Origin: Candidatus Sulfomarinibacteraceae bacterium
Lineage (GTDB): Bacteria; Acidobacteriota; Thermoanaerobaculia; Thermoanaerobaculales; Sulfomarinibacteraceae
DNA length: 64,000 nucleotides
Assembly (NCBI GenBank): GCA_963796455.1
Contig: CAWCLO010000004.1
Location: 480,001-544,000 of the forward strand
Reading direction: 5' to 3'
Below the pieces are notes generated by a model. It searched no databases. It had not been told where the DNA came from and worked only from the letters and a program-made list of their open reading frames with translations. Positions 997 to 18,960 of the stretch are shown piece after piece. A program made the translations under genes and the position numbers. Positions within the stretch are counted from its first letter, which is position 1. Every line of letters begins with the position of its first letter.

Positions 997-3233
997 ATGA
1001 AGGGCCGCCACGGCGTGATTCAGTCAATTCTCGGTCTGAGCCTTTTGGCGGCCACGGTGTTGCACCCGAGAGTTGCAGCGACTGCCGAACCCCACGTTGT
1101 ACCGAAAATCGATGACCAGATTCGAATCGACGGTCTTCTCGACGACCCGGGCTGGAAGGAAGCACTGGTCCTCGAGATCGGTGTTGAGGTTCGTCCTGGA
1201 GAGAACATTCCTGCGCCGGTGCGGACCCAGGTTTCGATCTGCTTCAACGACCGTATGCTTTTTGCGGCATTTCGTGCCTTTGATCCCAACCCGGGCGCGA
1301 TCCGGGCCCGCTACTCGGACCGCGACAGATTGTGGAACGATGATTGGGTAGCTCTGGTCCTCGATACCTTCAATGACGAAAGACGTTCCTTCGAGTTCTA
1401 CGTCAACCCGCTCGGTATCCAGGCCGACTCGATCGAAACCGGCAATGAAGGTGGGGGGCCTCAGTGGGACGCGATCTGGGATTCTGCGGGGCGTATCGAC
1501 GGCGAAGGCTATGTGGTGGAAATTGCGATCCCCTTCAGTTCGCTCCGATTTCAACCCACCGGCGGCGAACAGACATGGGGATTCGATGCGGTCCGCAACT
1601 ATCCGCGCCTGGTGAGCCACGTCATCGGCCTCTTCCCACGCGATCGGAGCAACAACTGCTATCTGTGTCAGGCTGACAAAATCCGAGGGTTTTCCGGCGC
1701 CAGTCCCGGCCGCGCCCTCGAATTCGATCCGACAATTTCAGCCATCCACAGCGAAGAACGGGATCCTTTCCCCGATGGGAGCTTTCACGAGGTGGATTCC
1801 ACGATCGAACCAGGTCTGACGGCCCGCTGGGGTGTGACGCCGAACCTCAATCTGAGCGCCACCATCAACCCTGATTTCTCGCAGATCGAAACCGACGCCG
1901 CCCAGCTCGACATCAATACCCAGTTCAGCCTGTTTTATCCCGAAAAGAGGCCCTTCTTTCTCGAGGGATTCGACTACTTCCAAACCCCGTTGAATGCCAT
2001 CTACACCCGGACGCTGGCCAACCCCATATGGGGAGTCAAGGTGGCAGGGAAGATCGGACCCAGCGCCATCGGATTTTTCTCCGTTCGGGACGAGGTGACC
2101 AATCTGCTGTTTCCGGCGACGGAGGGGTCGTCCTCGACTCAATGGGACGCGCAAAGCACCGGGACCGTTTTCCGCTATCGCCACGACATCGGCGCATCTT
2201 CGACCATCGGAGCATTGATCACCGATCGAGAGGGGGATGGTTACTTCAATCGACTATATGGTGCCGACCTCGATCTTCGTTTCACCCCCAAGGACACCCT
2301 GTTATTGCAGGTGCTCGAATCGAAGACGAAATATCCGCTGCACATCGCCGAGGACCATGATCAGCCGGAGTCGGTGTTCGACGGCCGGGCGATCGACTTT
2401 CTCTATGCCCACCAGACCAGGAGTCACGAGATCTACGCCAAGTATCCGTGGGATCAGCCCGGGTTTTCGGGCAGATCTGGGATTCGTTCCGCAATACCGG
2501 GTTCAAGTTCTACGACACCGGATATCTGCATACATGGCAGCAGAACGACCCAACCCATTGGTACAACCGAATCCGAGTATGGCTGGGCTACGAACGCGAA
2601 GAGGACTGGGACGGCAACATGCTCCGCAGTGCTCCCGGGACCTTCGTCATGTACTTCGGTCCGTTCCAGTCCTTCCTGGTAGGAATCTTTTATTACGGTG
2701 AACAGACCTATCTGGGGAGGGAGTACGACGACCGGACCTACGACGTTCGGCTCACGTTTCAGCCCTCCCGCGACCTCGAGTTCGGTCTCCGCGTCGATGG
2801 CGGAGACGATATCGACTACGCCAACAATCGCCCGGGAAAAAGACTCAGGCTCGTGCCATCGCTGGATCTCTTTGCAGGTCGCCACCTTCGATTCGACTTC
2901 AGCCACATCTACGAACAGCTCGACATCGACGAAGGGCGTCTCTACACCGCGAACCTCAGCGAGCTCAGAACCATCTATCAATTCAACCGGCGGGCTTTCG
3001 TTCGTTTGATTCTCCAGTACACCGACTACGCCTTCGATGAGAATCTCTACGCCGACGGCCGGGACCCGGTCTTCCGACACCTCCTCACGCAGTGGCTCTT
3101 TACTTACAAGGTGAATCCGCGAACCGCCCTTTACCTCGGCTATACCGACAACTATCAGGCCGACAGCCGGATCGATTTGACGCAGCTCAATCGCGCGGCC
3201 TTTTTCAAGATCGGATATGCGTGGGTTCCTTAG
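997..3233 (+). CDS. Exported CBM9-like/DUF5916 domain protein; two apparent frameshifts (~2445 and ~2495)
   Basis: Signal peptide; IRIDGLLDDPGW, LDTFNDER, NPDFSQIETD, FYPEKRPFFLEG motifs. Continues through a short third-frame segment GISPGFRADLGFVPQ into ORF 2448-3233, ending FFKIGYAWVP. Confidence 0.75.
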
Positions 3234-3353: not shown

Positions 3354-4799
3354 TCACTCTGCTGCAGCCGCGGATGCCCCGGGGATTTCCAGACGGTCCA
3401 CCGGTGCGGCGCTCTGCAACTCCCGAGCGGTGGTTCCTATGCTTTGACGGTGATATCGGCTCGGGACAACCATCAGCGAGGTCGGGAGCACATCTTCGAA
3501 ACGGCGAACGACTCGCAGCCACTGTTCGGCGCCAAGCCACCGGTGCATTTCGGTCAGCAGATTGCGCCACTCGACCGAATCGGGTTCGACGGCGTGCAAC
3601 AACGAATCGAGCAGGGAGAGGGTGTTTTCGATCGGCATATAGGAGGCAAGCACACCGATCAGATGCGGCCGCTCGAGAATGCACATTTCGTAGGCTCCCT
3701 CAAGCATTTCGAGGTGCTGCGCAAGCTCCAGTTCGGCGAGCACCGGCAGGAAATTGGCCTCCTCGTAGTCGAAGTGGGCGAATTGACCCTTGCGCAACAC
3801 GACGCATGTGGAGGCGAGAACCTTCAAGGAGTCGGCACGGGAACCCGGTGTTTCGCCGAGGGTCAGGTCGAAGAGTTCGAGGAGGGAATTCATCTCGGCC
3901 TCTTCGTGATCGTGTTGTCCGATGGCATCGGCGGTAAAACCGGGGTCGTTTCTGGCGGCGTCGAGAGCTGGAAACAGCAACAGGTTTTCGAGTTTGGCGT
4001 GGAGGGCCACCGCGCGGAACAACAAATAACAAAGATCGTGCGCTTCCTGAAGTTCGGAGTTGTCGCGATCCTCGCCCTCGGTGAGGGTCGAGGTACGGGA
4101 AACGACGTCGTCCCACATGGCGCGGAATCCGGAGTGGTGAAGACGTCCGACCTTCATCGGTTTTCCGTACTTTGCCTTTTTTGCATAGAACTGGCGCAGA
4201 AGGTGTCGTTGAGGAGCGATCTCGCGAAACGAGGGTCGGTTGACGATTCGATCCACCCAGGCATTGAAATCATCGTTTTCGAGAAAGATGGCGGGAACGT
4301 GGTCGCGAATCTCCACCATGAACGGGAGGCGGTACACGAACGGTGCGATATGGCCGTCGGCCTGGGAAAAATTATTGCCCCCGAGGTACGGCCCGCCACT
4401 CGCAGCGCGCACGAACTCGACCTTGTCGAGTGCTCGATCGAGTTTGTCGCGGAATTCCCGTTGGATGGGTGGCTTGCCGGCCAGGATGACCTTGGACATA
4501 CAGCGGAAGAGGGAATCCAGTGCATCCAATATTTCCGGATCACTTCGATAGGCTTCGCCCGCCTCACCTGCCTGGTCGATGAGATAGTCGACGATTTCTC
4601 TCGAATCCTGCAACAGCGGACTGCCGTCGGCTGGGGCGAAAACCGGCCACTCGCCGCCGGTGTTGGCTTCACGAACCGTCTCCGGGATATTCGGGTGATA
4701 CGCGACAGCGATATCCAATCCCATTTCGGTGGCCGCGATTTGTGCACGGTGGTTGAAGGGGCAAAGCGGCCCGTTGCTATAGAGAGTGCCGATGGTCAT
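3354..4799 (-). CDS. Glutathione S-transferase (Cys-type, CPF motif) fused to a C-terminal hemerythrin/HHE domain
   Basis: Start taken at ATG 4799. N-term LYSNGPLCPFNHRAQI...WPVF...QDSREIVDYL; GST-C GPYLGGNNFSQADGHIAPFVYRL; hemerythrin ligands HHSGFR, HAKLENLLLFPAL, HDHEE, HFDYEEANFLPVL. Confidence 0.75.
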   Translation of the reverse strand: MTIGTLYSNGPLCPFNHRAQIAATEMGLDIAVAYHPNIPETVREANTGGEWPVFAPADGSPLLQDSREIVDYLIDQAGEAGEAYRSDPEILDALDSLFRCMSKVILAGKPPIQREFRDKLDRALDKVEFVRAASGGPYLGGNNFSQADGHIAPFVYRLPFMVEIRDHVPAIFLENDDFNAWVDRIVNRPSFREIAPQRHLLRQFYAKKAKYGKPMKVGRLHHSGFRAMWDDVVSRTSTLTEGEDRDNSELQEAHDLCYLLFRAVALHAKLENLLLFPALDAARNDPGFTADAIGQHDHEEAEMNSLLELFDLTLGETPGSRADSLKVLASTCVVLRKGQFAHFDYEEANFLPVLAELELAQHLEMLEGAYEMCILERPHLIGVLASYMPIENTLSLLDSLLHAVEPDSVEWRNLLTEMHRWLGAEQWLRVVRRFEDVLPTSLMVVPSRYHRQSIGTTARELQSAAPVDRLEIPGASAAAAE

Positions 4800-4989
4800 C
4801 TGGTGCCTCCCGGCGGAACGATTTTTTGTGCGGTGTGATGAACAGGACGAGATTAGCATAATGAGTTGCAGTATCAGAATCAAAAAAACGATCCAGGCTT
4901 GCACGAATTGCTTCCGACCTTGTCGATCGCCGCATGCGGTTATGATTCGGGAGTTCAGCCGAAACGCGCGATCAGGAGAAGGAAGTGAC

Positions 4990-5814
4990 ATGCGAAGAAG
5001 GAGCACAATCACATTCGCGGGATTTCTTTCCGCCTTGCTCGCCCTGACCGCGTGTGCCGCGTCGTCGATCCCGGAGCCTCCTGCGCTCTGGATCGAACCG
5101 GTGACCGGGATGGAGTTTCTCTACGTCGTCCCCGCCCGGTTCACGATGGGCAGTGGTGAAGAGGTTCCGGGGCGTCAGATCGACGAGGTCCTCCATGATG
5201 TCAATCTGACCAGAGGTTTCTATCTCGGGCGCTTCGAGGTAACTCAAGAGGAATGGGTCGAAGTGATGGGGAACGACCCGAGTCAATTCTCCGCGTGCGG
5301 ATCTCGCTGCCCGGTCGAGACCGTGAATTTTTTCGACATCCAGCAGTTCATCCAGAGACTCGGTGAGCGCTCGGCGGGTCATCGATTTCGGCTTCCGACC
5401 GAGGCCGAATGGGAGTTCGCCTGCAGAGCAGGCACGACAACGCCATTCTCCACCGGCGAGAATTTGACGAGCGAGCAGGCGAATTTTGACGGGAAATATC
5501 CGTACGACGGCGCGCCGGCGGGTATCTTCCGAGGATCACCGGCGCCGGTCGGCAGTTATCCTCCCAATCCTTGGGGATTCCACGACATGCACGGCAACGT
5601 CTGGGAGTGGTGCCAGGATTGGTACGGGCCGTACCAGGAGGGTGAGGTCATCGATCCCCTCGGACCGGCGAATGGAGAGTTGCGGGTTATCCGAGGTGGA
5701 AGCTGGCTCTTTGACGGCAACAGTGCCCGTTCGGCGCTTCGCTACACCCATGCTCCCGAGGATGATGGATTCAGCCTGGGCTTCCGGCTGGTCAGAGAGG
5801 TCGGGGATCGCTGA
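4990..5814 (+). CDS. Formylglycine-generating-enzyme (SUMF1/FGE-sulfatase) family lipoprotein
   Basis: Lipobox LTAC; FTMGS, EVTQEEW, RLPTEAEWEFACRAG, PNPWGFHDMHGNVWEWCQD, RVIRGGSW, LGFRLV motifs. Confidence 0.9.
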   Translation: MRRRSTITFAGFLSALLALTACAASSIPEPPALWIEPVTGMEFLYVVPARFTMGSGEEVPGRQIDEVLHDVNLTRGFYLGRFEVTQEEWVEVMGNDPSQFSACGSRCPVETVNFFDIQQFIQRLGERSAGHRFRLPTEAEWEFACRAGTTTPFSTGENLTSEQANFDGKYPYDGAPAGIFRGSPAPVGSYPPNPWGFHDMHGNVWEWCQDWYGPYQEGEVIDPLGPANGELRVIRGGSWLFDGNSARSALRYTHAPEDDGFSLGFRLVREVGDR

Positions 5815-5826
5815 GTGCCTGGTCGA

Positions 5827-7146
5827 TCAAAAACGGATCGTGAGCCCCGACAACGCCCGCAGTTCCTCGTAGTCGTCGTGGTCGGTCCTTTCGACGACCA
5901 GGAGCAACGAGAAAGTGCGGCTGATGTTGGCGTTCATCGAGAGCGAGAACCGTTGACTCTCGGGCCGGATCTCGATCGTCCCGCCTTCGCCGTCGCGGTA
6001 CTGGAACACCGAAAGCGATGTCAGATAGTCCAGCGAAAGGTAGACCCTTGGACCGATGGTCTTGCCGAGCGAGACCCAGGTCGAGTCGTACTCCCGGTCG
6101 AGACGGTTGATTCGCGATGTGGAGGCGGAGAAATCGAGTCCGATCGCGCCGATGTTGTTGATCGACAGACCGAGATTGCTACGGTCGGCCCATTCGTCGT
6201 CGGAGTTGTTTCGGTCGCGGCCGTAGCCGACCCAGAATCGAACCCGTCGCCACGGGTTGATATTGACCCGCAAGCGGCCCGATTCAAAGAGCAGGCCCTG
6301 GAGCCGCTCCGGATCCACCGGACGGCCGTCCAGCACATCGTCGGTGATCGAACGGGCGTCGATGGAGCGGCCCCGGTGGTAGGTGCCCTGGAATTCGATC
6401 AGCCGCACCGGAGCGTAACGAATGTTGGTGAAAAAATAGCTGAGTTCGTTTTCCCCGAGACCCGCCGGGCCATCGATGTCGTACTCGAGGGCCTGATAGA
6501 AAAAGAACTTCCTTTTCACGGGGATGAAGTTGTTGAAGATCACTGTCGAGCGTTCGGTGAGTTCCTCGTTCCGGATGAGGACCCACCCGAGCACGTGGCG
6601 GCGGCCGTGCGCGGCATCGACGGCCGCGTAAACGCCGCCCTTGGTGATACCGTCCACAAAACCCAATTCGCGGATCTTTGGTTCAACGCCTGCAAAGAGC
6701 CCGAGCCGGAACTGGCCGAGGGAGGAGGCATGGCGAAAGCGGTATTCACCGGCCACGCCGGCAACGGCGCCGATACCGCCCATATCGCGTAGCCACATCT
6801 GGCCCAGACGAAGATTCCATTGATCGCCGGTGCTTCGATATCCGATCCACGCGTCGTAGACGGAAACCCGTTCATCGCGCCCCTCCTCGCCCGGGTAGGT
6901 GGCGATCCGTGTATCGAGGCCGAATTCGAAGTGTGAGGAAGGCTTCGGATCGGAGTAGAGCGAAAGGGTGGCGATCACTTCGGAAAAATCGTAACTCTCG
7001 CCCGCCACGAGGTCGCGGTCGGACCAGTTGTAAAAGAGGGCGAATCGTCCGTTGGCGGGAATCGCTTGAGCCGACACCGACTGGGCCGGTAACAACGAAA
7101 CCGATACCAGAACCAGAACAAAAAGAACCAGTCTGAACCTAGCCAT
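5827..7146 (-). CDS. Putative outer-membrane beta-barrel protein (cytochrome-associated porin candidate)
   Basis: Signal peptide; alternating hydrophobic/aromatic strands throughout; C-terminal ...LSGLTIRF ending in Phe; start overlaps the end of the upstream cytochrome gene. Confidence 0.7.
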   Translation of the reverse strand: MARFRLVLFVLVLVSVSLLPAQSVSAQAIPANGRFALFYNWSDRDLVAGESYDFSEVIATLSLYSDPKPSSHFEFGLDTRIATYPGEEGRDERVSVYDAWIGYRSTGDQWNLRLGQMWLRDMGGIGAVAGVAGEYRFRHASSLGQFRLGLFAGVEPKIRELGFVDGITKGGVYAAVDAAHGRRHVLGWVLIRNEELTERSTVIFNNFIPVKRKFFFYQALEYDIDGPAGLGENELSYFFTNIRYAPVRLIEFQGTYHRGRSIDARSITDDVLDGRPVDPERLQGLLFESGRLRVNINPWRRVRFWVGYGRDRNNSDDEWADRSNLGLSINNIGAIGLDFSASTSRINRLDREYDSTWVSLGKTIGPRVYLSLDYLTSLSVFQYRDGEGGTIEIRPESQRFSLSMNANISRTFSLLLVVERTDHDDYEELRALSGLTIRF

Positions 7147-9443
7147 GGCTCGGCCTCATCCGGAACACCGCGTCTTCTGGTTTTCGTCCGTCGGGGTGGC
7201 AGGAATAACAGGCAGCCGAGTCGTAAACATACCCGGTCTCGCCGTCGTGGTCGTCATCGGCATCACTGCGCGGGTGGCAACCGGCCGCGAGACAGTTGAA
7301 GATCCTGAAATTTGATGGATTGCGATGGCAATCGTCGCACTCTGTGCCCGCGTGTTTGCCGCTGTTGATCGGGAAATAGGTGTGATCAAAGGTTCCCTGG
7401 TTCCAGCTCGAGTCCGTTGCGCGGTGGCAGAGCTCACAGTCGGTCGGAAAACCGGCCGCAGCGTGGTTCGGGTTGTTGCTGCCGTTGTAGTCGTTCAGAT
7501 GGCAGCCGACGCAGTCGGTGGGCGTGCCGGCATAGATCTCCGCCCGAGTGGCATGAGGTGCAGTCGAGTGTGGCGTGGATCCCGACCAGGGAAAACGGGT
7601 GATCGAAGGATCGCACCCCCCACGTAGTGGGCTGGTGACATGCGTCGCAATCGGTGGGGAAACCGGCCGTCTGGTGGTTTGGGTCGGTGGTGGCGTTGTA
7701 GTCGTCGCGATGGCAATCGACGCACTGAGAGGGGAGGCCGGCATAGACGCCGCTGGAGTGACAAGTGCTGCATGGTTGGGCGGTGTGCGAGCCGACCAGC
7801 GGCCACACCGAGTGCGGGTAGTTTGCTCGAAACCAATTCGAGTCGGACTGTCTGTGACAGGTGTCGCAGTCGGTGGGAAAACCGGCCGCCGTGTGATTTG
7901 GGTTGTTGGTGGAGTTGTAGTCGTTGAGGTGGCAACCGACGCAATCGGTGGGCGTACCGGCGTAGACACCACCCGAGTGGCAATCAGAGCAGTCGAGTGT
8001 GGCGTGGACCCCGACCAGTGAATAGGGGTGGTCGACGGTAGCGCCCGACCAGGTGGTTGGTTGATGGCAGTTTTCGCAGTCTGTCGGGAATCCGGCCGAC
8101 TGGTGGTCGGGGTCATCGGTCGCGTTGTAGTCGTTGAGGTGGCAGCCGACGCAATCGGTGGGCGTACCAGCATAGACGCCGCCGGAGTGGCAGTTGGCAC
8201 AATCCAACGTCGCGTGGACACCGGCGAGTTGATAGGGATGATTGAATTCCGCGTCATCCCACGAGTTGTCCGCCTGGTTGTGGCAGGCGTCGCAGGTCGT
8301 CGGGAAAGCCGCGGCGCCGTGATCCGGATCGTTCGTGCCGTTGTAGTCATCCTGGTGACAGGTGAAACAGTCTTGTGGCGTTCCCACGTAGATTCCGCTG
8401 CTGTGGCACGCGGCGCAGTCGAGAGTCGCGTGCCGGCCGAGCAGGCGGTACCGATGCTCGAAATCTGCCCCCTCCCACGAACCATCGGTCGGGCGGTGGC
8501 ACGCATCGCATTGAGTCGGAAAACCGGCTGCAACGTGGTCGGGCTCTCGAGCGCCTTCGTAATCCTCGCGATGGCAGGAATAGCAGTCCTGGGACACGGG
8601 ACCGTCGAAGCGTCTTCCGGTGTGGCAGCCCTCGCAGCCCACGGTCAGATGCTGGGTGCCGACCCGAACACCCGTGTTCGCCTGATGGTTCCACTTCGCC
8701 GGGATCCAACCGGTCGGCTCATGACAGTCCTGGCATGCGGAACCGAGTCGAGCCCGGTAGGGGTCGTCTTGACGGCGGATCCAGTGGCAGTCGTAACAAT
8801 TCGTCGGTGTGCCTTTGAGAACGCCATTCCAATGACAGGATGCGCAGGGGACGGCCAGGTGGCGGCCTTCGAGCGGCAGCAGGGTCGATTTGTGAAATGC
8901 CCGCGAGGCATTTTTAAAATGGGTGTCCATCGAGTGACATGTGGTGCAATCCTCACCCAGCGTGCCTTGGTGGGCGTCCAGGTGGCAGGTGGAGCAATCG
9001 GGCGTCAGCTCGAGGAACGATCGCGTGGTGTGACATTTTGAACAATCGCCTGAAAAACCGCCGTGGTACCCCTCGAGGGCGAAGCCGGTTTCGTTGGCGT
9101 GATTAAAATCTTCCCGTTCGATGGGTCTGAGATCGGTGTCACGCCCCTGGTGCTCGACGTGGCATACGGCGCAGTCATCGGCCGAGGCCTCGCGATGGAG
9201 CCCTTTCCTGGCGGCGATGCGGTCACCAATCTGATCGTGGCAGACCAGACACCGATTGCCATCGACCTCGAGATCGTCGTTGTGGCAGCTGTCGCAGCTT
9301 TCCGGGTCTTCAAGGCTCTCGTGGGCCAGGCTGAGCCGACCGGGCATGAAATCGATGTCGTCTTCCTGGGCATGCACCAGAACGGTGAAAGCTATCAGGA
9401 TCGTCGCCAGAATGACCACCCGGGGTCCGTCCGACCGCCACAT
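7139..9443 (-). CDS. Large multiheme cytochrome c (~30 heme-binding motifs, ~767 aa after repairing one frameshift at ~7538)
   Basis: 25 CxxCH in ORF 7434-9548 plus 4 CxxCH and 1 CxxxxCH in the continuing frame (ORF 7139-8533). Signal peptide from ATG 9443 (...LIAFTVLVHA|QEDD); alternative start 9548. Confidence 0.92.
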
Positions 9444-10467: not shown

Positions 10468-10664
10468 CTTGATCTCCTTTGTGGGGGTGCAATTTCACGC
10501 ATTGTTGCATGAGCGGTTCCGAGTCGCGGAAATTCGTGCTGGCAACCATCCGTTTCATGGAATTCTTTGGGGCCTCGCGGGTTTCTAGAAAGGGGTTGTT
10601 CTGAGATTAGATCTTAATTTGCCATGCTCGCCATGGGGCGGGTGGGTTTTTTGGAGGAGTGGGG

Positions 10665-13374
10665 ATGATCGGAAGCAGTTTTTCGCACTATAAGGTGACA
10701 TCCAAATTGGGTGAGGGTGGGATGGGTGAGGTGTGGCGCGCCGAAGACACCAAGCTCGGCCGCGACGTCGCACTTAAAGTGCTGCCCGACGTCTTTGCCC
10801 AGGATCCGGAGCGGTTGGCGCGCTTCGAGCGCGAGGCCCGGGTATTGGCATCGCTTTCCCACCCGAACATTGCCGGAATCCACGGTCTCGAGGAGATCGA
10901 CGGGAAACGTTTCCTGGTGATGGAGATGGTGGAGGGTCCGACCCTGGCTGAGCACATTCAGCAGGGCCCGATGCCCATCGAAGAGGTGGTGCGTTTCTCC
11001 AAACAGATCGCCGACGCGGTGGAGGCGGCGCATGAAAAGGGCGTGATCCACCGGGACCTCAAACCGGCCAACGTCAATATCACCCCGGAAGGCACCGTGA
11101 AAGTCCTGGACTTTGGTCTCGCGAAGGCCCTGACCGGGGACCCGATGTCTGGCGAAGGAAGCAATCAGGATCTCTCGTTGTCACCGACCATGACCCAGGC
11201 GATGACGGGGATGGGCGTGCTGCTCGGCACTGCCGGCTATATGAGTCCGGAGCAGGCTCGAGGCAAGCCGGTCGACCGGCGGGCGGACATCTGGGCCTTC
11301 GGCTGCATTATGTACGAGATGCTCACCGGGCAACGGTTGTTCACCGGCGAGACAGCGACCGATGTGATCGGTGCGGTGGTGCACAAAGAACCGGATCTGG
11401 ACGAGCTGTCGACGAGGGTGCCGGTGCGCATTCGCCGCCTGCTTGAGCGCTGTCTGCAAAAGGACGCGAACCGCCGTCTGCAGTCGATCGGCGACGCGCG
11501 GATCGCCCTTCAGGAGTGGATCGAGAACCCCGAGGATGAACCGGTCGAGGCTGCGAGTGGCCGGCCGGCCTGGCTGCTCTGGGCTGCCGCCGCAACGGCG
11601 GGGGTGATCGGTCTCGTGCTGGGAAGTGTTTTTCTTGGGTCGAATGATCGGGAACCGCAGTTGGTCCAACGCATCGAAGCCGAGATCTCCGAAGAGGTGC
11701 TGTTCACCAATCGCGGCGCCGCCGCGGTGCCCTCACCGGATGGTCGATACCTCGCCTATGCGACGAGGATCGACGGCGGCGGCGCGCTTTATCTGCGGCC
11801 CCTGGACAGATTGGAAAGCCTGCAGGTGGCCATCGGTCAGGCTCGTGACTGGCCGCACAATGCATTCTTTTCCCCAGACAGTCAGTGGCTCGGATTCTTC
11901 ACGGTCGCCGAACTCAAGAAAGTGCCGGTAACCGGCGGTTCCCCGATCACGCTGGCTCAAACCGAGATGCCCCGTGGGGGCAGTTGGAGTTCGGACGGAC
12001 GGATCGTCTACGCTTCCAGCATCGAACGCCGGTCTCTCGATCGTGCCGGCAGCGGGCGGCGACGTCGCCTCCTTGACGACGGTGCCGGAGGGCGAGGGAC
12101 TCGAGAGTCATCGCTATCCCCAGTGGTTGCCCGGTGACACGGCGGTGCTGTTCACGGTCGTAGAAGCGACGGGAACTCGGCTCGAAATCGTCGACGCCGC
12201 CAACGGGGAACGCCGGGTGTTGCACGAGGGAGGTGCCTACGGCCGCTACGTGTCGACCGGCCACGTGCTCTTCGTCGACGGCGATGCGGTCTTTGCGATG
12301 CCTTTTGACGACAAGCGACTCGAGCGCACCGGTTCGCCGATGCCGGTGCTCGAGGGAGTCGCCTCGCTTCCGGCCGCAGGTGAAGCGCAGTATGCGGTCT
12401 CGGACACCGGGTTGCTGGTCTACCGGCCGGGATCGGACGACCTCAACCCCTTCCCGATCGCCTGGGCGGACCGCACCGGACGCGTCGAAAGTCTGTGGGA
12501 CGACGAAGGCATCTATGGCTCTCCCCGCCTCGCCCCGGACGGACGTCGGCTCGCGGTCTCGGTTCAGCGCGGGGACGACTGGGATGTCTGGGTCTACGAT
12601 ATGGAGCGTGATGTCGCGACGCGACTGACCTTCGAAAGTGGATACGATGCCGATCCGGTGTGGTCACCAGACGGCCGCTTCATCGCCTTTGCCTCGGATC
12701 GCGACGATGGTCAGATCGCTGCCTACCGTACTCGAAGCGACGGCACCGGCGAGGCGGAGCGGTTGATCGAGCCAGGCAAACTCGAATTCCCGGCTCCTTT
12801 GAGCTTTTCGCCTGATGGTGCGCGTCTCCTGGTGATCACCCCGGGGCCGAACGGTTCGGACGATCTCTGGTTCCTTTCTACCGATGGACAGGGTGAGCCC
12901 GAACCTTATCTCGCCTCACCTTTCGACGAAGGCGACGCACACTTTTCGCCCGACGGTCGTTGGATCGTCTACCGATCCAACGAGACGGGAGACTCGGAGA
13001 TCTACGTCCGTTCGACGACGGGGCCGGGCAAATGGCAGATCTCGGATGGCGGCGGATGGCAGCCTCTGTGGTCGGGTGATGGGGAGACGTTGTTCTACCG
13101 CAGTCGCGAGGGTCTGAACGCCGTCGAGGTCGAAGCCGGCGGAGACGAATTCAGGGCCGGTCGACCCCAGTTTTTGTTCGGGGAGGTTTTCGGCGGTCCT
13201 GCGGGTGTGCGGCTGCCGGGCTATCTCTTTTACGACTACGACGTCAGCGCTGACGGCGAGCGCTTTGTGGTCTTCCCACGAAGGACCGCGGAGGAAGTCG
13301 GGAATGCGGACATTCACGTTGTCAACGGTTGGTTCGAGGAACTCCGACGACTGACTGCGGGTGGCAGCAATTGA
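10665..13374 (+). CDS. Membrane Ser/Thr protein kinase with TolB/PD40 beta-propeller ectodomain, copy 1 (frameshift ~12014)
   Basis: [32 protein letters not shown] segment; repeated (F/W)SPDG. Removing one T at ~12014 joins ORF 10659-12137 to 11974-13374; RBS GGAGGAG. Confidence 0.9.
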
Positions 13375-13422
13375 GCAGGGCGTGCGAATTTCAGCAGTCA
13401 GCGAGACAGTGAAGGAGTGGGG

Positions 13423-16161
13423 ATGATCGGAAGCAGTTTTTCGCAATACAAGGTGACGTCCAAACTTGGCGAGGGCGGCATGGGCGAGGTGTGGCGCGCC
13501 GAGGACACCAAGCTCGGTCGCGACGTCGCACTCAAAGTGCTTCCGGATGCCTTTGCCCAGGATCCTGAGCGCCTGGCGCGTTTCGAGCGCGAGGCCCGGG
13601 TACTGGCATCGCTCTCACACCCGAACATCGCTGGGATCCACGGTCTCGAAGAGATCGACGGTAAAAGATTTTTGGTGATGGAGATGGTGGAGGGTCCGAC
13701 CCTGGCTGAGCACATTCAGCAGGGCCCGATGCCGATCGAAGAGGTGGTGCGCATCTCCAAACAGATCGCCGAGGCGGTGGAGGCGGCGCATGAGAAAGGG
13801 GTCATCCACCGCGACCTCAAACCGGCCAACGTCAATATCACCCCGGAAGGCACCGTCAAAGTCCTGGACTTCGGCCTCGCAAAGGCACTGACCGGGGACC
13901 CGATGTCGGGCGAAGGCAGCGACCAGGATCTCTCGATTTCGCCGACCATGACTCAGGCGATGACCGGCATGGGAGTGCTGCTCGGGACCGCTGGCTATAT
14001 GAGTCCGGAGCAGGCCCGGGGCAAGCCGGTGGATCGTCGAGCAGACATCTGGGCCTTTGGCTGCATCATGTACGAGATGCTCACCGGACAGCGCCTGTTC
14101 ACCGGAGAGACGGCGACCGATGTGATCGGGGCGGTGGTGCACAAAGAGCCTGACCTCGACGAGCTGTCGACAAAGGTGCCGACGCGCATCCGACGCCTGC
14201 TCGATCGCTGTTTGCAGAAGGACGCGAGCCGACGACTCCAGTCGATCGGCGAGGCGCGGATCGCCCTCCAGGAGTGGCTGGAAAACCCCGAGGAAGAAGC
14301 AGTCCCTGTGTCCGAGGGCTCTCGCCGCTCGCCGTGGTTGATCGTGGCCGGTACCGCGGCCGGACTACTCCTGGGAGCGCTCCTTGGAGGTTGGTTGCTC
14401 GGCGGTAGCAGCGAGCCGGAGCCGCTGCGGCGCTTTGAAATTAACGTTTCGGAGCAGGGGCTGTTTTCACGGCTCGGAGCCGGTTTGGTTGTTTCGCCGA
14501 ACGGCCAGGCGATCGCTTACAGCCCCGGTGAGGAGGGTGGGACACAGTCCCTTGTGATCCGCCCGCTCGACCGATTCCAGGAGACGGTGCTGGCCACCGG
14601 CGAAGGTGCGAATGGACCCTATCACCCGTTTTTTTCACCTGACGGCTCGTGGCTCGGTTATGTGACACCGGGTGAGCTCAAGAAGATCTCGACCAGTGGT
14701 GGCGCACCAATCACTCTTGCGGAGGTCGATCGGAGTCGCGGCGCGAGTTGGGGACCGGACGGAACAATCGTCTACGCTCGATCGGTGTTGACGGGTCTTT
14801 CTCTCATCTCGGCAGCCGGTGGGGACCCGACACCGCTCACCGAGTTGGACGAGGGGGCCAAGGAGCAGACACACAGATGGCCCCAGTGGCTTCCCGGCGG
14901 CAAGGCGGTGCTTTTCAGCTCCCTCAACCAGGGTGGGCAGTTCGCATTCGAGGATGGTGTCATCGAGGTGGTGGACGTCGAAAGCCGGGTGCGCAAGGTG
15001 ATCCACCGGGGCGGCTACTATCCGCGCTACGTATCTACCGGACACATCCTCTACGTTCACGAAGGGACACTTTTTGCTCTGCCCTTCGACGTCAAGAGCC
15101 TCGAGGCCACCGGTTCGCAAATGCCGGTACTGGAAGGTCTCGAGACCAATGCGGGCCAGGGTTCGGCGCAATACGCTGTTTCGGAGAACGGACTTCTGGT
15201 GTACCTCGAAGGATCGGATGAGCTCAAACCATTTCCCATCGTGTGGGCGGACCGGGAAGGGCACGCCGAGACCTTGTGGCAGGAGACGGGGATCTACGGT
15301 GGGCCGCGGCTCTCGCCGGATGGCGGCCGGCTCGCAGTCTCGGTGCTGCGTGACGGCAACTGGGATGTCTGGGTCTATGACCTGGAGCGCGATGTCGCCA
15401 CCCGCATCACCTTTGGCGAGGCCTATGATGCCGATCCCGAGTGGTCGCCCGATGGACGCTGGATCGCATATGCCTCCGAGGTCGACGGCGTCGACGGCGT
15501 CTTCCGCAAACGAACCGATGGGACCGGCGAAGCGGAGGTCCTGCTCGAGCCGGGAAAATACACATTCCCCGCTCCGCACTCCTGGTCGCCCGATGGCCGC
15601 CATCTCGCGATTCAGGTTGCCGGAGAGGGTGGTCAGAACGACATCTGGATCATGCCTCTTGACGAAAATGGTGCCGGGGATCCGGAACCCTTCGTATCGA
15701 CACCGTTCACAGAGAGCGGGCCGAGGTTTTCTCCGGATGGCCGTTGGATCGCCTATACCTCCAACGAGACCGGTCGCCCGGAGATCTTTGTCGCGTCCTT
15801 CCCTCCGGGCGGTGGCAAGTGGCAGGTTTCCAGCGGTGGCGGCACCCAGGCCCTTTGGTCGGGAGACGGTCGTGAACTCTTCTTCCGCACCGATACCGGC
15901 ATCATGTCAGTCAGGATCTCGACCGAAGGTGCTTCGTTCAGGGCAAACCGACCGGATGTTGTTTTTGAAGCTGGATTCCTTGGCGGGCTGCGAGGAATTC
16001 TCTTACCGGGGTTCAATTTTCCGGATTACGACGTCTCTCCGGGCGGTGACCGTTTCGTGATGTTCCAGGGCACAACCGAAGGCGCCCAGGCGACCGAGGC
16101 AAAGGTCGTGCTTGGTTGGTTCGAAGAGCTGCGGCGTCTCACTGAAGCCGGTGCTCCGTAG
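13423..16161 (+). CDS. Membrane Ser/Thr protein kinase with TolB/PD40 beta-propeller ectodomain, copy 2
   Basis: Intact ORF with all Hanks kinase motifs, [25 protein letters not shown], multiple SPDG repeats. Confidence 0.95.
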
Positions 16162-16239
16162 AAAACGTCGAGGAGCCCGAATCGTGGACACAGCAATTGA
16201 AATCTATAGCTCGAGTGAATTCGAGGGGGAACGCACGCA

Positions 16240-18960
16240 ATGATCGGAAGTAGTTTTTCGCAGTACAAGGTGACATCGAAATTGGGCGAGGGCGGAATGG
16301 GGGAGGTGTGGCGCGCCGAGGACACCAAGCTCGGCCGCGACGTCGCTCTCAAGGTTTTGCCCGATGCCTTTGCCCAGGATCCCGAGCGGCTGGCGCGCTT
16401 CGAGCGCGAGGCCCGGGTTCTGGCATCGCTCTCCCACCCGAATATCGCCGGAATCCACGGTCTCGAGGAGATCGACGGCAAACGATTCCTGGTGATGGAG
16501 ATGGTGGAAGGCCCCACTCTGGCGGAGCTCATCCAAAAGAGCCCGTTGCCGATCGACGAGGTGGTGCGCATCGCCAAACAGATCGCCGAGGCGGTCGAAG
16601 CGGCGCATGAGAAAGGGGTCATCCACCGCGACCTCAAACCGGCCAACGTCAATATCACCCCGGATGGCACCGTGAAAGTCCTGGATTTCGGTCTCGCGAA
16701 GGCCCTGACCGGTGACCCCATGTCTGGCGAAGGAAGCAATCAGGATCTCTCGTTGTCACCGACCATGACCCAGGCGATGACGGGGATGGGCGTGCTGCTC
16801 GGTACCGCTGGCTATATGAGTCCGGAGCAGGCCAGGGGCAAACCGGTGGATCGGCGAGCAGACATCTGGGCCTTTGGCTGCATCATGTACGAGATGCTCA
16901 CCGGACAGCGCCTGTTCACCGGAGAGACGGCGACCGATGTGATCGGGGCGGTGGTGCACAAAGAGCCCGACCTCGACGAGCTGTCGACGAAGGTGCCGGG
17001 CCGAATTCGACGCTTGCTCGACCGCTGTTTACAAAAAGACGCGACCCGGCGACTCCAGTCAATCGGCGAGGCGCGGATTGCCCTCCAGGAGTGGCTCGAG
17101 AATCCCGAAGCCGAAGCACCCACATCGGGGCAGGCCGCAACTTCGGGTCTGCGTCGTTGGCTGCCGTGGGCGGTCGCCGCCGGCGCCCTCCTGCTTGTTC
17201 TCGTGCAGGCGACCGGTTTGGTGGGCGGGCGAGACAGTTCTCCCGAGCCGGTCCGACGGGCGACCATCGAGGTTGGGGAGGACGGGCTGTTTTCGGGCTT
17301 CGGCACCAGCTCCGTGTTGTCCCCCGACGCAAGGATGCTGACCTTCGTCACCGGTTCCGGAAACGAGGGCGGCAATATTTTGTTGCGCCACCTCGACCGA
17401 TTCGAACCGACGACGATCGCAACCGGTGGGGCGGGGGCGGCGCCATACCAGCCGTTTTTCTCACCCGACGGCGAGTGGCTCGGATACGTCACCCCGGCCG
17501 AGCTTAAAAAGGTCTCGACCGCAGGCGGCGCGCCGATCACTCTGTGCAGCGTGAATCTCAGCCGAGGGGCGACCTGGGGGGAGAACGAGACCATCGTCTT
17601 TTCGCCGTCTCCACGAAGCCCGCTCATGAGCGTGTCCTCGGCTGGTGGCGAACCGCAGTCGCTGACCGATCTCGGCGAGACCGACATCAGCCACCGCTGG
17701 CCGCAGTGGTTGCCCGATGGGGAGACTGTTTTGTTCACATCGCTAAACGAAGGATCCGACAACTTCGAGGGGGCGAATCTCGAAGTGTTGACGGTGGCGA
17801 CCGGCGAGCGCAGGGTGGTCCATCGCGGCGGGTATCACGGTCGATACGTGGAGACAGGACATATTCTCTATGTCCACGAAGGCACTCTGTTCGCCCTGCC
17901 GTTCGATCTGAAAAAGCTCGAGGCCCGCGGTTCACAGATGCCCGTGCTCGAAGATCTCGACGCCACCGTCGTCCAGGGCGCCGCGCAATTCGACGTCTCG
18001 AAAAACGGTGTTCTCGTCTATGCCGCCGAGTCGCAGCAGGGCGACCCCTTCCCGATCGTCTGGGTCGATCGGCACGGACGCACGGAATCATTGTGGGCGG
18101 AGCCCGGGCTCTACGCAAATCCCGAGCTCTCACCCGATGGACGTAAGTTGTCGCTCTCCATGCTGCGCGGCAACAACCTGGATGTCTGGATCTACGACCT
18201 CGTGCGGAAAGTCGCAACGCGTCTGACCTTTGACGAGGGCTATGACGCCGATCAGGTCTGGTCGCCGGACAGCCGAACCATCGCCTTTTCTTCGAATCGC
18301 GGTGACGGCAACAACTCCATCTACCGCAAGGCAGCCGACGGGTCCGGAGAGGTCGAGGTGGTCGTCGAGGCAGGTGAGATGCCCGCCCTTTACCCGACGT
18401 CCTGGTCCCCCGACGGGAAGTGGCTCGCAGTCTGGACGGCCAACTCGGATGTCTATGTCGCGTCGGTTGAAAGCGGCGAGCTCGAGCCGTTTCAAAATAC
18501 GGATTTCGGTGAGTTCAACCCGAGCTTTTCCCCGGACGGCCGCTGGATCGCATATGACTCCAACGAATCCGGCCGGCTCGAAATCTATGTCCGCGGATTC
18601 CCATCCGGAGGTGGCAAGTGGCAGGTATCCGACGGAGGTGGTGCACTGGCGCGGTGGTCCATGGATGGGCGTGAGCTCTTCTACCGAACCGACACTGGCA
18701 TCATGGCGGTTTCAGTCGACGGCAGCGGTTCGAATTTCGAGGTCGGCACGCCCCGCAATCTGTTTGACGGCCCTTTCCTGGGCGGGACCAATGGCGTCGA
18801 TATCGGCGGGTTCATTTTCCCGGACTACACCGTCAGCGGCGACGGCCAGCAATTTGTCATGTTCGCCGGTCGGGAGGAGACGAGCCGCCCGACCTCGGTG
18901 CGGTTGGTGACCAACTGGTTCGACGAGCTGAAACGTCTCACGGCCGCTGGAACCAGATAA
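16240..18960 (+). CDS. Membrane Ser/Thr protein kinase with TolB/PD40 beta-propeller ectodomain, copy 3
   Basis: Intact 906-aa ORF, same architecture as copies 1 and 2. Confidence 0.95.
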   Translation: MIGSSFSQYKVTSKLGEGGMGEVWRAEDTKLGRDVALKVLPDAFAQDPERLARFEREARVLASLSHPNIAGIHGLEEIDGKRFLVMEMVEGPTLAELIQKSPLPIDEVVRIAKQIAEAVEAAHEKGVIHRDLKPANVNITPDGTVKVLDFGLAKALTGDPMSGEGSNQDLSLSPTMTQAMTGMGVLLGTAGYMSPEQARGKPVDRRADIWAFGCIMYEMLTGQRLFTGETATDVIGAVVHKEPDLDELSTKVPGRIRRLLDRCLQKDATRRLQSIGEARIALQEWLENPEAEAPTSGQAATSGLRRWLPWAVAAGALLLVLVQATGLVGGRDSSPEPVRRATIEVGEDGLFSGFGTSSVLSPDARMLTFVTGSGNEGGNILLRHLDRFEPTTIATGGAGAAPYQPFFSPDGEWLGYVTPAELKKVSTAGGAPITLCSVNLSRGATWGENETIVFSPSPRSPLMSVSSAGGEPQSLTDLGETDISHRWPQWLPDGETVLFTSLNEGSDNFEGANLEVLTVATGERRVVHRGGYHGRYVETGHILYVHEGTLFALPFDLKKLEARGSQMPVLEDLDATVVQGAAQFDVSKNGVLVYAAESQQGDPFPIVWVDRHGRTESLWAEPGLYANPELSPDGRKLSLSMLRGNNLDVWIYDLVRKVATRLTFDEGYDADQVWSPDSRTIAFSSNRGDGNNSIYRKAADGSGEVEVVVEAGEMPALYPTSWSPDGKWLAVWTANSDVYVASVESGELEPFQNTDFGEFNPSFSPDGRWIAYDSNESGRLEIYVRGFPSGGGKWQVSDGGGALARWSMDGRELFYRTDTGIMAVSVDGSGSNFEVGTPRNLFDGPFLGGTNGVDIGGFIFPDYTVSGDGQQFVMFAGREETSRPTSVRLVTNWFDELKRLTAAGTR

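What the first reader, a model, noticed from the sequence alone, without database searches (positions are those of the whole stretch)
5827..9443. Two-gene porin-cytochrome conduit candidate: ~30-heme modular cytochrome coupled to an unrecognised beta-barrel
Seen: after repairing one extra base at ~7538, the cytochrome has 29 CxxCH plus 1 CxxxxCH in ~767 aa and a Sec-type signal. Its end overlaps the start of a 439-aa barrel-like protein ending in Phe. Established: MtrAB, PioAB and Pcc conduits pair a periplasmic multiheme cytochrome with an outer-membrane porin, with about 8-10 hemes in the characterised ones. Inference: one 30-heme chain could span the periplasm and thread the barrel. That would make a minimal extracellular electron-transfer system; I recognise no MtrA or MtrB sequence features, and the likely host lineage is little studied for EET.
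Basis: partly seen in the sequence, partly recalled or inferred. Interest (0 to 1): 0.8.

Follow-up and report, generated by a model that had tools for sequence, protein, structure and literature searches.

The report
Single-chain heme wire threading a barrel
These two genes encode a 30-heme cytochrome built from three-heme repeats and a protein predicted to form a 22-stranded outer-membrane barrel; one conserved repeat is predicted to plug the barrel, so the chain would likely carry electrons between the periplasm and an outside tail whose length varies widely among related bacteria.

Summary
In detail: 29 CxxCH plus one CxxxxCH in 767 aa, and a 439-aa protein modelled as a plug-less 22-strand barrel. 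The extra base is most likely an assembly error; both bridging contigs from related strains lack it. The pair is conserved: 72 of 78 barrel loci have the cytochrome beside or near them, with 18 to 138 hemes, nearly always in threes. Co-folding a relative's pair (0.67, best control 0.00) places only one triheme unit, the most conserved, in the barrel lumen. Before that unit, relatives carry about 6 or about 24 hemes; only the long form lies beside a membrane cytochrome-b-like gene (19 of 29 versus 0 of 13). After it the count varies freely. So this chain probably does not span the periplasm: a 6-heme head inside, 21 hemes likely outside. It looks like a fused, reduced variant of the predicted, untested PCC3-type conduit; homology to PCC3 proteins could not be tested. 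This scan noted the same pair before on other DNA. No function is shown.

The parts
7139..9443 (-). Multiheme c-type cytochrome gene, 767 aa when read through the surplus base; ten triheme units, 30 heme motifs
   Evidence: Pfam PF14522/PF14537/PF02085 over cut-off
9369..9443 (-). Sec-type signal peptide (aa 1-25), no lipobox cysteine
   Evidence: read from the sequence
8910..9368 (-). Six-heme head (two units), homologous to the start of stand-alone first cytochromes of split clusters; predicted periplasmic
8691..8909 (-). Junction triheme unit (aa 179-251): most conserved unit, the one predicted to fill the barrel lumen; split relatives start their second cytochrome here
8463..8690 (-). Second junction triheme unit (aa 252-327)
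7391..8462 (-). Five tandem 70-72-aa triheme repeats, the length-variable part; predicted extracellular
7537..7543 (-). Site of one surplus base (frameshift), most likely an assembly error
7139..7390 (-). C-terminal cap triheme unit with the CxxxxCH motif
5827..7146 (-). 439-aa outer-membrane protein, predicted 22-strand plug-less beta-barrel, C-terminal Phe, start overlapping the cytochrome stop by 8 nt; no Pfam or NCBIfam family

Best explanation
The genes encode a 30-heme cytochrome and a predicted outer-membrane barrel that likely form a one-chain electron conduit: the junction triheme is predicted to plug the barrel, the 6-heme head would face the periplasm and the 21 hemes behind the plug would extend outside. 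Shown: motif count, ten-unit layout, gene coupling, conservation, and free variation of the part after the junction. Predicted: the barrel fold and the docking of the junction unit. Inferred: bis-His ligation of all hemes (exactly two His per heme), the inside/outside polarity, feeding of the short head by soluble periplasmic carriers as in MtrA, and electron transfer itself; its direction and substrate are open. Relatives with a 24-heme head would reach a membrane cytochrome-b-like protein directly. The chain likely arose by fusion of the two cytochromes of a PCC3-like cluster, and this genome carries the reduced form. Part of the heme-loaded chain would have to be threaded through the pore during assembly.
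For: Layout: each unit has 3 heme motifs and 6 His; 62 His in all, one in the signal peptide and one at the C-terminus. Barrel: pLDDT 90.4, 22 strands; best match is the barrel part of a TonB-dependent transporter, Z 19.4, rmsd 4.7, 381 aligned. Co-folding of the L040 pair (barrel 43% identical; 18-heme cytochrome with all unit types): score 0.67, best of 3 controls 0.00; the mark is reached by 116 of 157 solved and 2 of 215 mismatched pairs, roughly, since my own alignments were used; runs share at least 61% of contacts, partner pLDDT at least 70. Confident contacts lie only on residues 143-215, the junction unit, and on lumen-facing residues of 18 of 22 strands plus outer loops; these are more conserved than the rest (0.73 vs 0.56). 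The junction unit has 25 of 58 non-ligand positions at least 90% conserved, against 9-17 in the other five units. Five of 120 listed homologs begin at this unit behind their own signal peptide. Split clusters with homologous barrels: Emticicia plasmid (23 + 40 hemes; barrel hhalign 84%, E 7.7e-6) and Acidobacteriota loci L123, L126, L127, L130. Hemes before the junction: 6 in 13 loci, 22-24 in 29, nothing between; after it 12-52 and 114 in one 138-heme ORF. Membrane gene in the locus: 19 of 29 long-head, 0 of 13 short-head; 12 of 13 short-head genomes gave no match at all. At about 1 nm per heme (MtrA about 100 A), 24 hemes match a periplasm of about 200 A. Maturation genes are present.
Against: No experiment and no expression data. 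The complex is a relative's, folded without hemes; one of three runs scored 0.33; a cytochrome-in-barrel pose may be recalled from the solved MtrAB. Polarity rests on 25 listed contact pairs and strand parity; it is suggestive only. The cytochrome alone folds poorly (pLDDT 56, pTM 0.24), so a straight wire is not shown. The head-length/membrane-gene link gives only 6 independent pairs, about 5 in the same direction and none opposite, median p 0.06; 7 of 10 long-head genomes without an adjacent membrane gene had no match anywhere, so a long head does not need it. The rows for the conservation count were chosen for having the junction motif. No export route is known to me for such a fused chain; the two secretin matches fall below the GspD cut-off. 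The cultured split-form carrier Emticicia is not known to me as a metal reducer (recalled).
Confidence: 0.6

Rival explanations
1. The junction unit docks in the barrel as a loop, but head and repeat tail both stay in the periplasm. The barrel gives a single contact point to the outside, and the variable tail acts as a charge store or distributor rather than an external wire.
For: One Sec signal and periplasmic heme attachment make the periplasm the default place; no threading is needed. The contact list does not say where residues beyond 215 go. Storage was proposed for similar large cytochromes (passages).
Against: Junction residues 157-162 touch the mid and periplasmic half of the strands, while 186-190 touch outer loop 3 and 209 the outer half. 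Only the tail varies freely while the head is fixed at 6 or 24. A 114-heme tail is hard to fit in a 20-nm space. PCC3's second, variable cytochrome is predicted extracellular.
Confidence: 0.2
2. One reading: the whole chain lies across the periplasm and its C-terminal cap enters the barrel, MtrA-style.
For: 30 hemes could span the periplasm; the cap is present in most complete relatives and lies next to the barrel gene.
Against: The co-folded cytochrome contained the cap, yet no cap residue is among the confident contacts (unnamed residues are uncertain, not excluded). The cap is less conserved than the junction (12 vs 25 of 58). Lengths from 18 to 138 hemes do not fit a fixed span.
Confidence: 0.07
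3. In this genome the pair is a decaying remnant: the frameshift is real and the loss of the membrane partners left it without function.
For: The frameshift is in the assembly; the membrane gene was not found in the genome (90.5% complete); the genome has other conduits. No reads of this strain were laid.
Against: Both bridging contigs of related strains lack the surplus base. Close intact homologs exist (75% identity, 30 and 36 hemes). Short-head, partner-less forms recur across the barrel tree (7 changes needed), several with intact frames. 17 of 43 complete chains in relatives show frame switches, as expected from error-prone assemblies of repeats.
Confidence: 0.07
4. The barrel only exports and anchors the cytochrome; the surface chain serves adhesion, sensing or redox buffering, not respiration.
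For: The barrel's nearest solved folds are transporters, ushers and porins. The pair is patchy: 10 of 41 close relatives and 23 of 301 genomes of the phylum, the window's included.
Against: Heme motifs run without a gap through the docked unit, and long forms sit beside a membrane protein with two W-x3-H-x13-H motifs and an NAD(P)/FAD/2Fe-2S oxidoreductase, which points to an electron path from the cytoplasm.
Confidence: 0.06

Closest known systems
PCC3 predicted porin-cytochrome cluster (He et al. 2017, PMC5566968; Hoover et al. 2023, PMC10734462; similar 24+49-heme cluster in Arbour et al. 2020, PMC7399161)
   Same: [quoted passage not shown] Function untested there too.
   Different: Here one chain instead of two cytochromes; the first part is cut to 6 hemes; no membrane gene in this locus or found in this genome; Acidobacteriota rather than Proteobacteria. 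Sequence homology to named PCC3 proteins was not tested.
MtrAB / MtoAB / PioAB
   Same: Cytochrome inside a plug-less barrel; a short periplasmic part fed by shuttles; two-gene forms exist.
   Different: Cytochrome scores 25.5 bits against a DmsE/MtrA cut-off of 192; the barrel hits no family and has 22 strands (MtrB 26, recalled); MtrB match Z 14.7, rmsd 6.8, 357 aligned, below the 22-strand transporters. The outer part is fused, not a separate MtrC.
Geobacter c7-domain polymers (GSU1996 type, TIGR04257)
   Same: Tandem triheme units; TIGR04257 scores 41.7 against a cut-off of 40.
   Different: A profile of this family finds no solved chain at E 0.01. The third distal His lies between motifs 2 and 3, whereas c7 has it before motif 2 (c7 order recalled). 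Those polymers are not known to me to be coupled to this barrel.
Geobacter-type Pcc (OmbB-OmaB-OmcB, ExtABCD; Shi et al. 2014, PMC4245776)
   Same: Porin gene beside a cytochrome gene; two-gene versions in Anaeromyxobacter and Kuenenia.
   Different: Their periplasmic cytochromes have at most 14 hemes; the porins could not be compared here.
Acidobacteriota clusters of Flieder et al. 2021 (PMC8528874) and Fiorito et al. 2026 (10.64898/2026.05.27.727921); Lentimicrobium 61+20-heme cluster (PMC13013709)
   Same: Porin plus multiheme cytochrome genes in the same or similar lineages, proposed for extracellular electron transfer.
   Different: The Flieder cluster has NHL-repeat and isomerase genes absent here; Fiorito's representatives have 8-13 hemes. 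The Lentimicrobium cluster may be the split form by its counts; I did not see its sequences.

Membership tests
PCC3 | Inner-membrane protein with two W-x3-H-x13-H motifs and SGxxG in the cluster | tested here: not met
   Not in this locus and no match in G000 (90.5% complete). Present with these motifs invariant in relatives, in 19 of 42 scored loci.
PCC3 | Two separate cytochromes, one periplasmic and one extracellular | tested here: not met
   One ORF with one signal peptide here; split forms with homologous barrels exist elsewhere.
PCC3 | Repeat-built cytochrome with about 25-30 aa per heme | tested here: met
   742 mature residues for 30 motifs, about 25 per heme; PCC3 examples 26-30.
PCC3 | Adjacent beta-barrel porin (22 to about 42 predicted strands) | tested here: met
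   22 strands in the model; range.
PCC3 | Sequence homology to named PCC3 proteins | not testable with these tools
   No named PCC3 sequence could be obtained; plasmid searches gave only the Emticicia cluster and short porin-less relatives; the paper's table body was not readable.
MtrAB/MtoAB/PioAB | DmsE/MtrA-family decaheme cytochrome | tested here: not met
   30 motifs; TIGR03508 25.5 bits against cut-off 192.2.
MtrAB/MtoAB/PioAB | MtrB/PioB-family porin | tested here: not met
   No Pfam or NCBIfam hit at E 0.1; no PDB sequence hit for the 67-row profile; 22 strands; MtrB ranks 29th by fold.
Geobacter-type Pcc (OmbB/ExtB) | Porin homologous to OmbB or ExtB | tested here: inconclusive
   No family hit, but no OmbB or ExtB sequence was compared directly.
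Geobacter-type Pcc (OmbB/ExtB) | Periplasmic cytochrome of at most 14 hemes | tested here: not met
   30 motifs here; 14 is the largest in Shi et al. 2014.
c7-domain polymer (TIGR04257) | c7-type triheme domain | tested here: inconclusive
   TIGR04257 just over cut-off, PF14522 over cut-off; no solved chain found by profile or by a low-confidence model; ligand order differs from c7 as recalled.
Extracellular electron conduits in general | [quoted passage not shown] | not testable with these tools
   Needs bench work.

The most novel reading that the evidence does not exclude
A nanowire made as one polypeptide that threads its own dedicated barrel: a conserved triheme plug sits in the pore, a head of fixed length (6 hemes for shuttle-fed, 24 for membrane-wired cells) stays inside, and a tail whose length is set by tandem-repeat number reaches outward, up to 114 hemes (about 100 nm) in a 138-heme relative. 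This would be a route to a long extracellular wire without polymerising subunits and would need an undescribed threading step.
Probability: 0.45. Interest if true: 0.85.

Novelty: new variant of a known kind. Interest (0 to 1): 0.62.

Why it matters
PCC3-type clusters have been predicted since 2017, but none of the passages I read shows which part of the giant cytochromes meets the porin or why they are so long. This family gives a specific, testable answer: one identifiable triheme unit, with a fixed-length inner part and a free-length outer part on either side. The 18-heme pair (about 850 residues together) is small enough to express and solve. If the tail is outside, sediment and soil Acidobacteriota carry genetically length-tuned wires, relevant to mineral and humic redox cycling and to designed bioelectronic wires. 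Short-read contigs often end inside the repeats (25 of 78 loci), which helps explain why the family is overlooked.

Tried and rejected
Pfam and NCBIfam give nothing for the barrel; the ESM Atlas gives unnamed Acidobacteriota clusters, and outer-membrane barrel families at 0.92 only. PDB sequence searches with the barrel and cytochrome profiles: nothing usable. The cytochrome model was poor and its fold search empty; this says nothing about the fold. No RNA holder listed. Runs X5-X8 did not bridge the frameshift. Named PCC3 proteins could not be reached, so membership by sequence stays open; look-ups of ten distant barrel hits named almost no organisms; Atlas clusters near the head include Pseudomonadota, a lead only. 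A type II secretion secretin was not shown: two matches below cut-off. Weak Pfam hits below cut-off (OCC1, SLT_beta) were set aside as Cys/His-repeat noise. Window neighbours (FGE-sulfatase-like, GST-hemerythrin, cupin, kinases) do not form a conserved neighbourhood, apart from a kinase-family cluster in 11 loci, mostly on the other strand. Literature searches that found no description of this fused pair: Thermoanaerobaculia + multiheme + porin, 0 papers; PCC3 + Acidobacteri, 0; porin-cytochrome + fused + single polypeptide with two more terms, 0; some searches gave the papers cited. The library lacks most subscription papers. Unseen material may bear on this: Flieder Suppl. Fig. 7, He Suppl. 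Table 4 body and Fig. S1 sequences, Fiorito supplements and parts 5-8, and Fig. 6 of PMC13264449, whose groups with more than 20 motifs or with a ferredoxin-NADP reductase may include this family.
Full report
OBSERVATION. Both genes lie on the minus strand. The cytochrome starts at ATG 9443; its first frame has 25 CxxCH motifs and a second frame ending at 7139 has four more plus one CxxxxCH. The parts add up to 767 aa with one surplus base near 7538. Shuffled DNA gives 0.125 motifs on average against 29. The second gene (7146-5827, 439 aa, final Phe) overlaps the cytochrome stop by 8 nt. Of eight public runs laid on the site, two had a contig bridging it, and both lack the base; the other six did not bridge it. 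These are related strains, not this one. The assembly has other split genes. I read the frameshift as an assembly error.

ANATOMY. The cytochrome is ten triheme units, each with three heme motifs and six His, which fits bis-His ligation throughout (inferred). In order: signal peptide, a two-unit head, two junction units, five 70-72-aa repeats and a cap. The repeats are 62-77% alike in DNA. The partner has no Pfam or NCBIfam family, 340 relatives among 8000 scored candidates and 178 among the 50% representatives. AlphaFold2 gives a 22-strand barrel without a plug (pLDDT 90.4, pTM 0.77). Its best structural match is the barrel part of a TonB-dependent transporter (Z 19.4, rmsd 4.7, 381 aligned); MtrB ranks lower (Z 14.7, rmsd 6.8, 357 aligned).

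HOST AND CONSERVATION. The nearest relatives are titled Ca. Sulfomarinibacteraceae, Holophagae or Thermoanaerobaculia. The barrel was found in 10 of 41 close genomes and 23 of 301 across the phylum, 11 of them weakly; both counts include this genome. Of 78 barrel loci, 67 have the cytochrome directly upstream, 5 nearby, 5 end within 450 nt of the barrel, and 1 has none. Of 26 complete single-frame chains, 25 have a multiple of three motifs, from 18 to 72; one further ORF has 138 motifs in 3434 codons, with 30 of 34 repeat modules distinct. The genome has ccmABCEF-like genes (all below the curated cut-offs), an MtrC-family gene over cut-off beside a split MtrA-like gene, and a GSU2203/GSU2204-type pair, so this pair is not its only candidate conduit.

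WHICH PART MEETS THE BARREL. Three lines point to the first junction unit (aa 179-251). It is the most conserved: 25 of 58 non-ligand positions at 90% or more, against 9-17 in the other units (rows were chosen for having the motif). Five of the 120 listed homologs start at this unit behind their own signal peptide. And co-folding of the shortest complete pair (L040; 18 hemes, all unit types present) scored 0.67 against 0.00 for the best of three controls, a mark reached by 116 of 157 solved and 2 of 215 mismatched pairs (roughly, with my alignments); runs agree in at least 61% of contacts and partner pLDDT is at least 70. All confident contacts are on residues 143-215, this unit, and on alternate residues of 18 of 22 strands plus outer loops. 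Early residues of the unit touch the mid and periplasmic half, later ones outer loop 3 and the outer half, which suggests head inside and tail outside. Limits: a relative, no hemes, one run at 0.33, possible recall of MtrAB, and only 25 listed pairs for polarity. The cytochrome alone modelled poorly.

TWO LENGTHS, TWO RULES. Of 59 loci with 12 or more motifs, 42 could be scored (10 were cut at the 5' end, 7 lacked my junction pattern). Before the junction they have 6 hemes (13 loci, this one included) or 22-24 (29 loci); after it 12-52, and 114 in the 138-heme ORF, whose head has 24. A membrane-protein gene with two W-x3-H-x13-H motifs and SGxxG, usually preceded by an NAD(P)/FAD/2Fe-2S oxidoreductase gene, lies in 19 of 29 long-head and 0 of 13 short-head loci. 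Twelve of the 13 short-head genomes gave no match anywhere; the exception has a second cluster; completeness was not given for the other genomes. Against: 7 of 10 long-head genomes without an adjacent copy gave no match either, and on the barrel tree (41 rows, 7 changes of head length) there are only 6 independent pairs, about 5 concordant and none opposite, median p 0.06. At about 1 nm per heme (MtrA about 100 A), 24 hemes fit a periplasm of about 200 A; this is inference.

FUSION. Distant homologs of the barrel sit beside two separate cytochromes. The Emticicia oligotrophica plasmid NC_018749 carries ccsA, the membrane gene, a flavoprotein, a 23-heme cytochrome that starts like the head, a 40-heme cytochrome that ends in the cap, and a 538-aa protein homologous to the barrel. 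Acidobacteriota loci L123, L127 and L130 are similar, and L126 has a stand-alone 6-heme head and a 12-heme junction-plus-cap protein on either side of the barrel. The direction, fusion or fission, was not tested with a rooted tree.

MECHANISM. Most likely (0.6): both proteins cross the inner membrane by Sec, Ccm attaches the hemes, the junction unit plugs the barrel, the 6-heme head exchanges electrons with soluble periplasmic carriers, and 21 hemes extend outside. The fold and docking are predicted; polarity, feeding and electron transfer are inferred; direction and substrate are unknown. Rivals: both ends periplasmic (0.2), cap in the barrel (0.07), pseudogene (0.07), anchor only (0.06).

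COMPARISON. It works like a porin-cytochrome conduit. It fails the MtrAB tests. It is closest to PCC3: He et al. 2017 (passages; Fig. S1 text, Table S6, legend of Table S4) and Hoover et al. 2023 (passages) describe a 21-27-heme first cytochrome, a variable second one, a porin and a membrane protein with the same motifs. Arbour et al. 2020 (passages, section 18, first part of one supplement) note length variation in such proteins. This locus fails two PCC3 features (two cytochromes, membrane gene) and homology to named PCC3 proteins was not testable, so I do not file it as a member. Also seen: Shi 2014 (passages), Flieder 2021 (passages and supplement rows), Fiorito 2026 (parts 1-4 of 8; largest count 116 motifs), PMC13013709 (passages), Edwards 2020 (two passages; largest then 86), PMC8100337 and PMC13264449 (passages). 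Recalled, from no call: strand number of MtrB, ligand order of c7, the physiology of Emticicia.

NOVELTY AND SCORE. New variant of a known, untested kind. Earlier notes of this scan reached the PCC3 comparison for this family several times and once for this very pair in another genome; they are unchecked and not independent support. What I did not find in them as shown, or in the searches named under Tried and rejected, is the barrel-binding unit, the fixed-head/free-tail rule or the 138-heme ORF. Interest 0.62; the boldest reading has probability 0.45 and interest 0.85.

Noticed in passing
L139 (G365:C24:85000-104000, minus strand; same locus as L079): One open frame of 3434 codons with 138 heme motifs (24 before the junction, 114 from it on), membrane gene upstream and barrel downstream; above the 86 and 116 maxima in the passages read. 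Some repeats are near-identical, so the number needs read support.
   Followed up: partly
L101:16198-28782 (Emticicia oligotrophica plasmid NC_018749.1): Complete split-form operon with its own ccsA on a plasmid of a cultured strain: a ready experimental model, and a hint that the cluster can move.
   Followed up: partly
L131 (G000:C3:49502-54467): MtrC-family decaheme gene (over cut-off), split MtrA-like gene and a 690-aa unassigned ORF in MtrB position.
   Followed up: partly
L132 (G000:C1:627278-630588): GSU2203-family decaheme plus GSU2204-family (seleno)protein, both over cut-off; the second is interrupted by a stop before its last part, possibly a selenocysteine codon (not checked).
   Followed up: no
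G000:C4:912486-915713: A 23-heme protein with a membrane-like C-terminal part, divergent from a pentaheme membrane cytochrome gene; a candidate inner-membrane electron source for the short head.
   Followed up: no
window 10659-18960: Three tandem Ser/Thr kinase genes with long repeat-like C-terminal parts; the first is split by an apparent frameshift.
   Followed up: no
window 997-3233: DUF5916/CBM9-like outer-membrane gene split in two frames, probably another assembly indel.
   Followed up: no
window 3354-5012 (minus): Glutathione S-transferase-like domains fused to a hemerythrin-like domain.
   Followed up: no
L062, L085, L087, L089, L092, L126: Gene order is shuffled: the barrel precedes the cytochrome, is separated from it, or lies between split halves.
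   Followed up: partly
P0128, P0135, P0136, P0140: Longer barrel homologs (617-1038 aa); three carry or weakly match N-terminal AMIN domains, suggesting cell-wall anchoring in some lineages.
   Followed up: no
L060, L093, L049: Loci titled Eubacteriales, Methanoregulaceae and Methylomirabilota; L093 sits next to a Vicinamibacterales barrel on the tree, so mis-binning is likely for it; the others were not checked.
   Followed up: no
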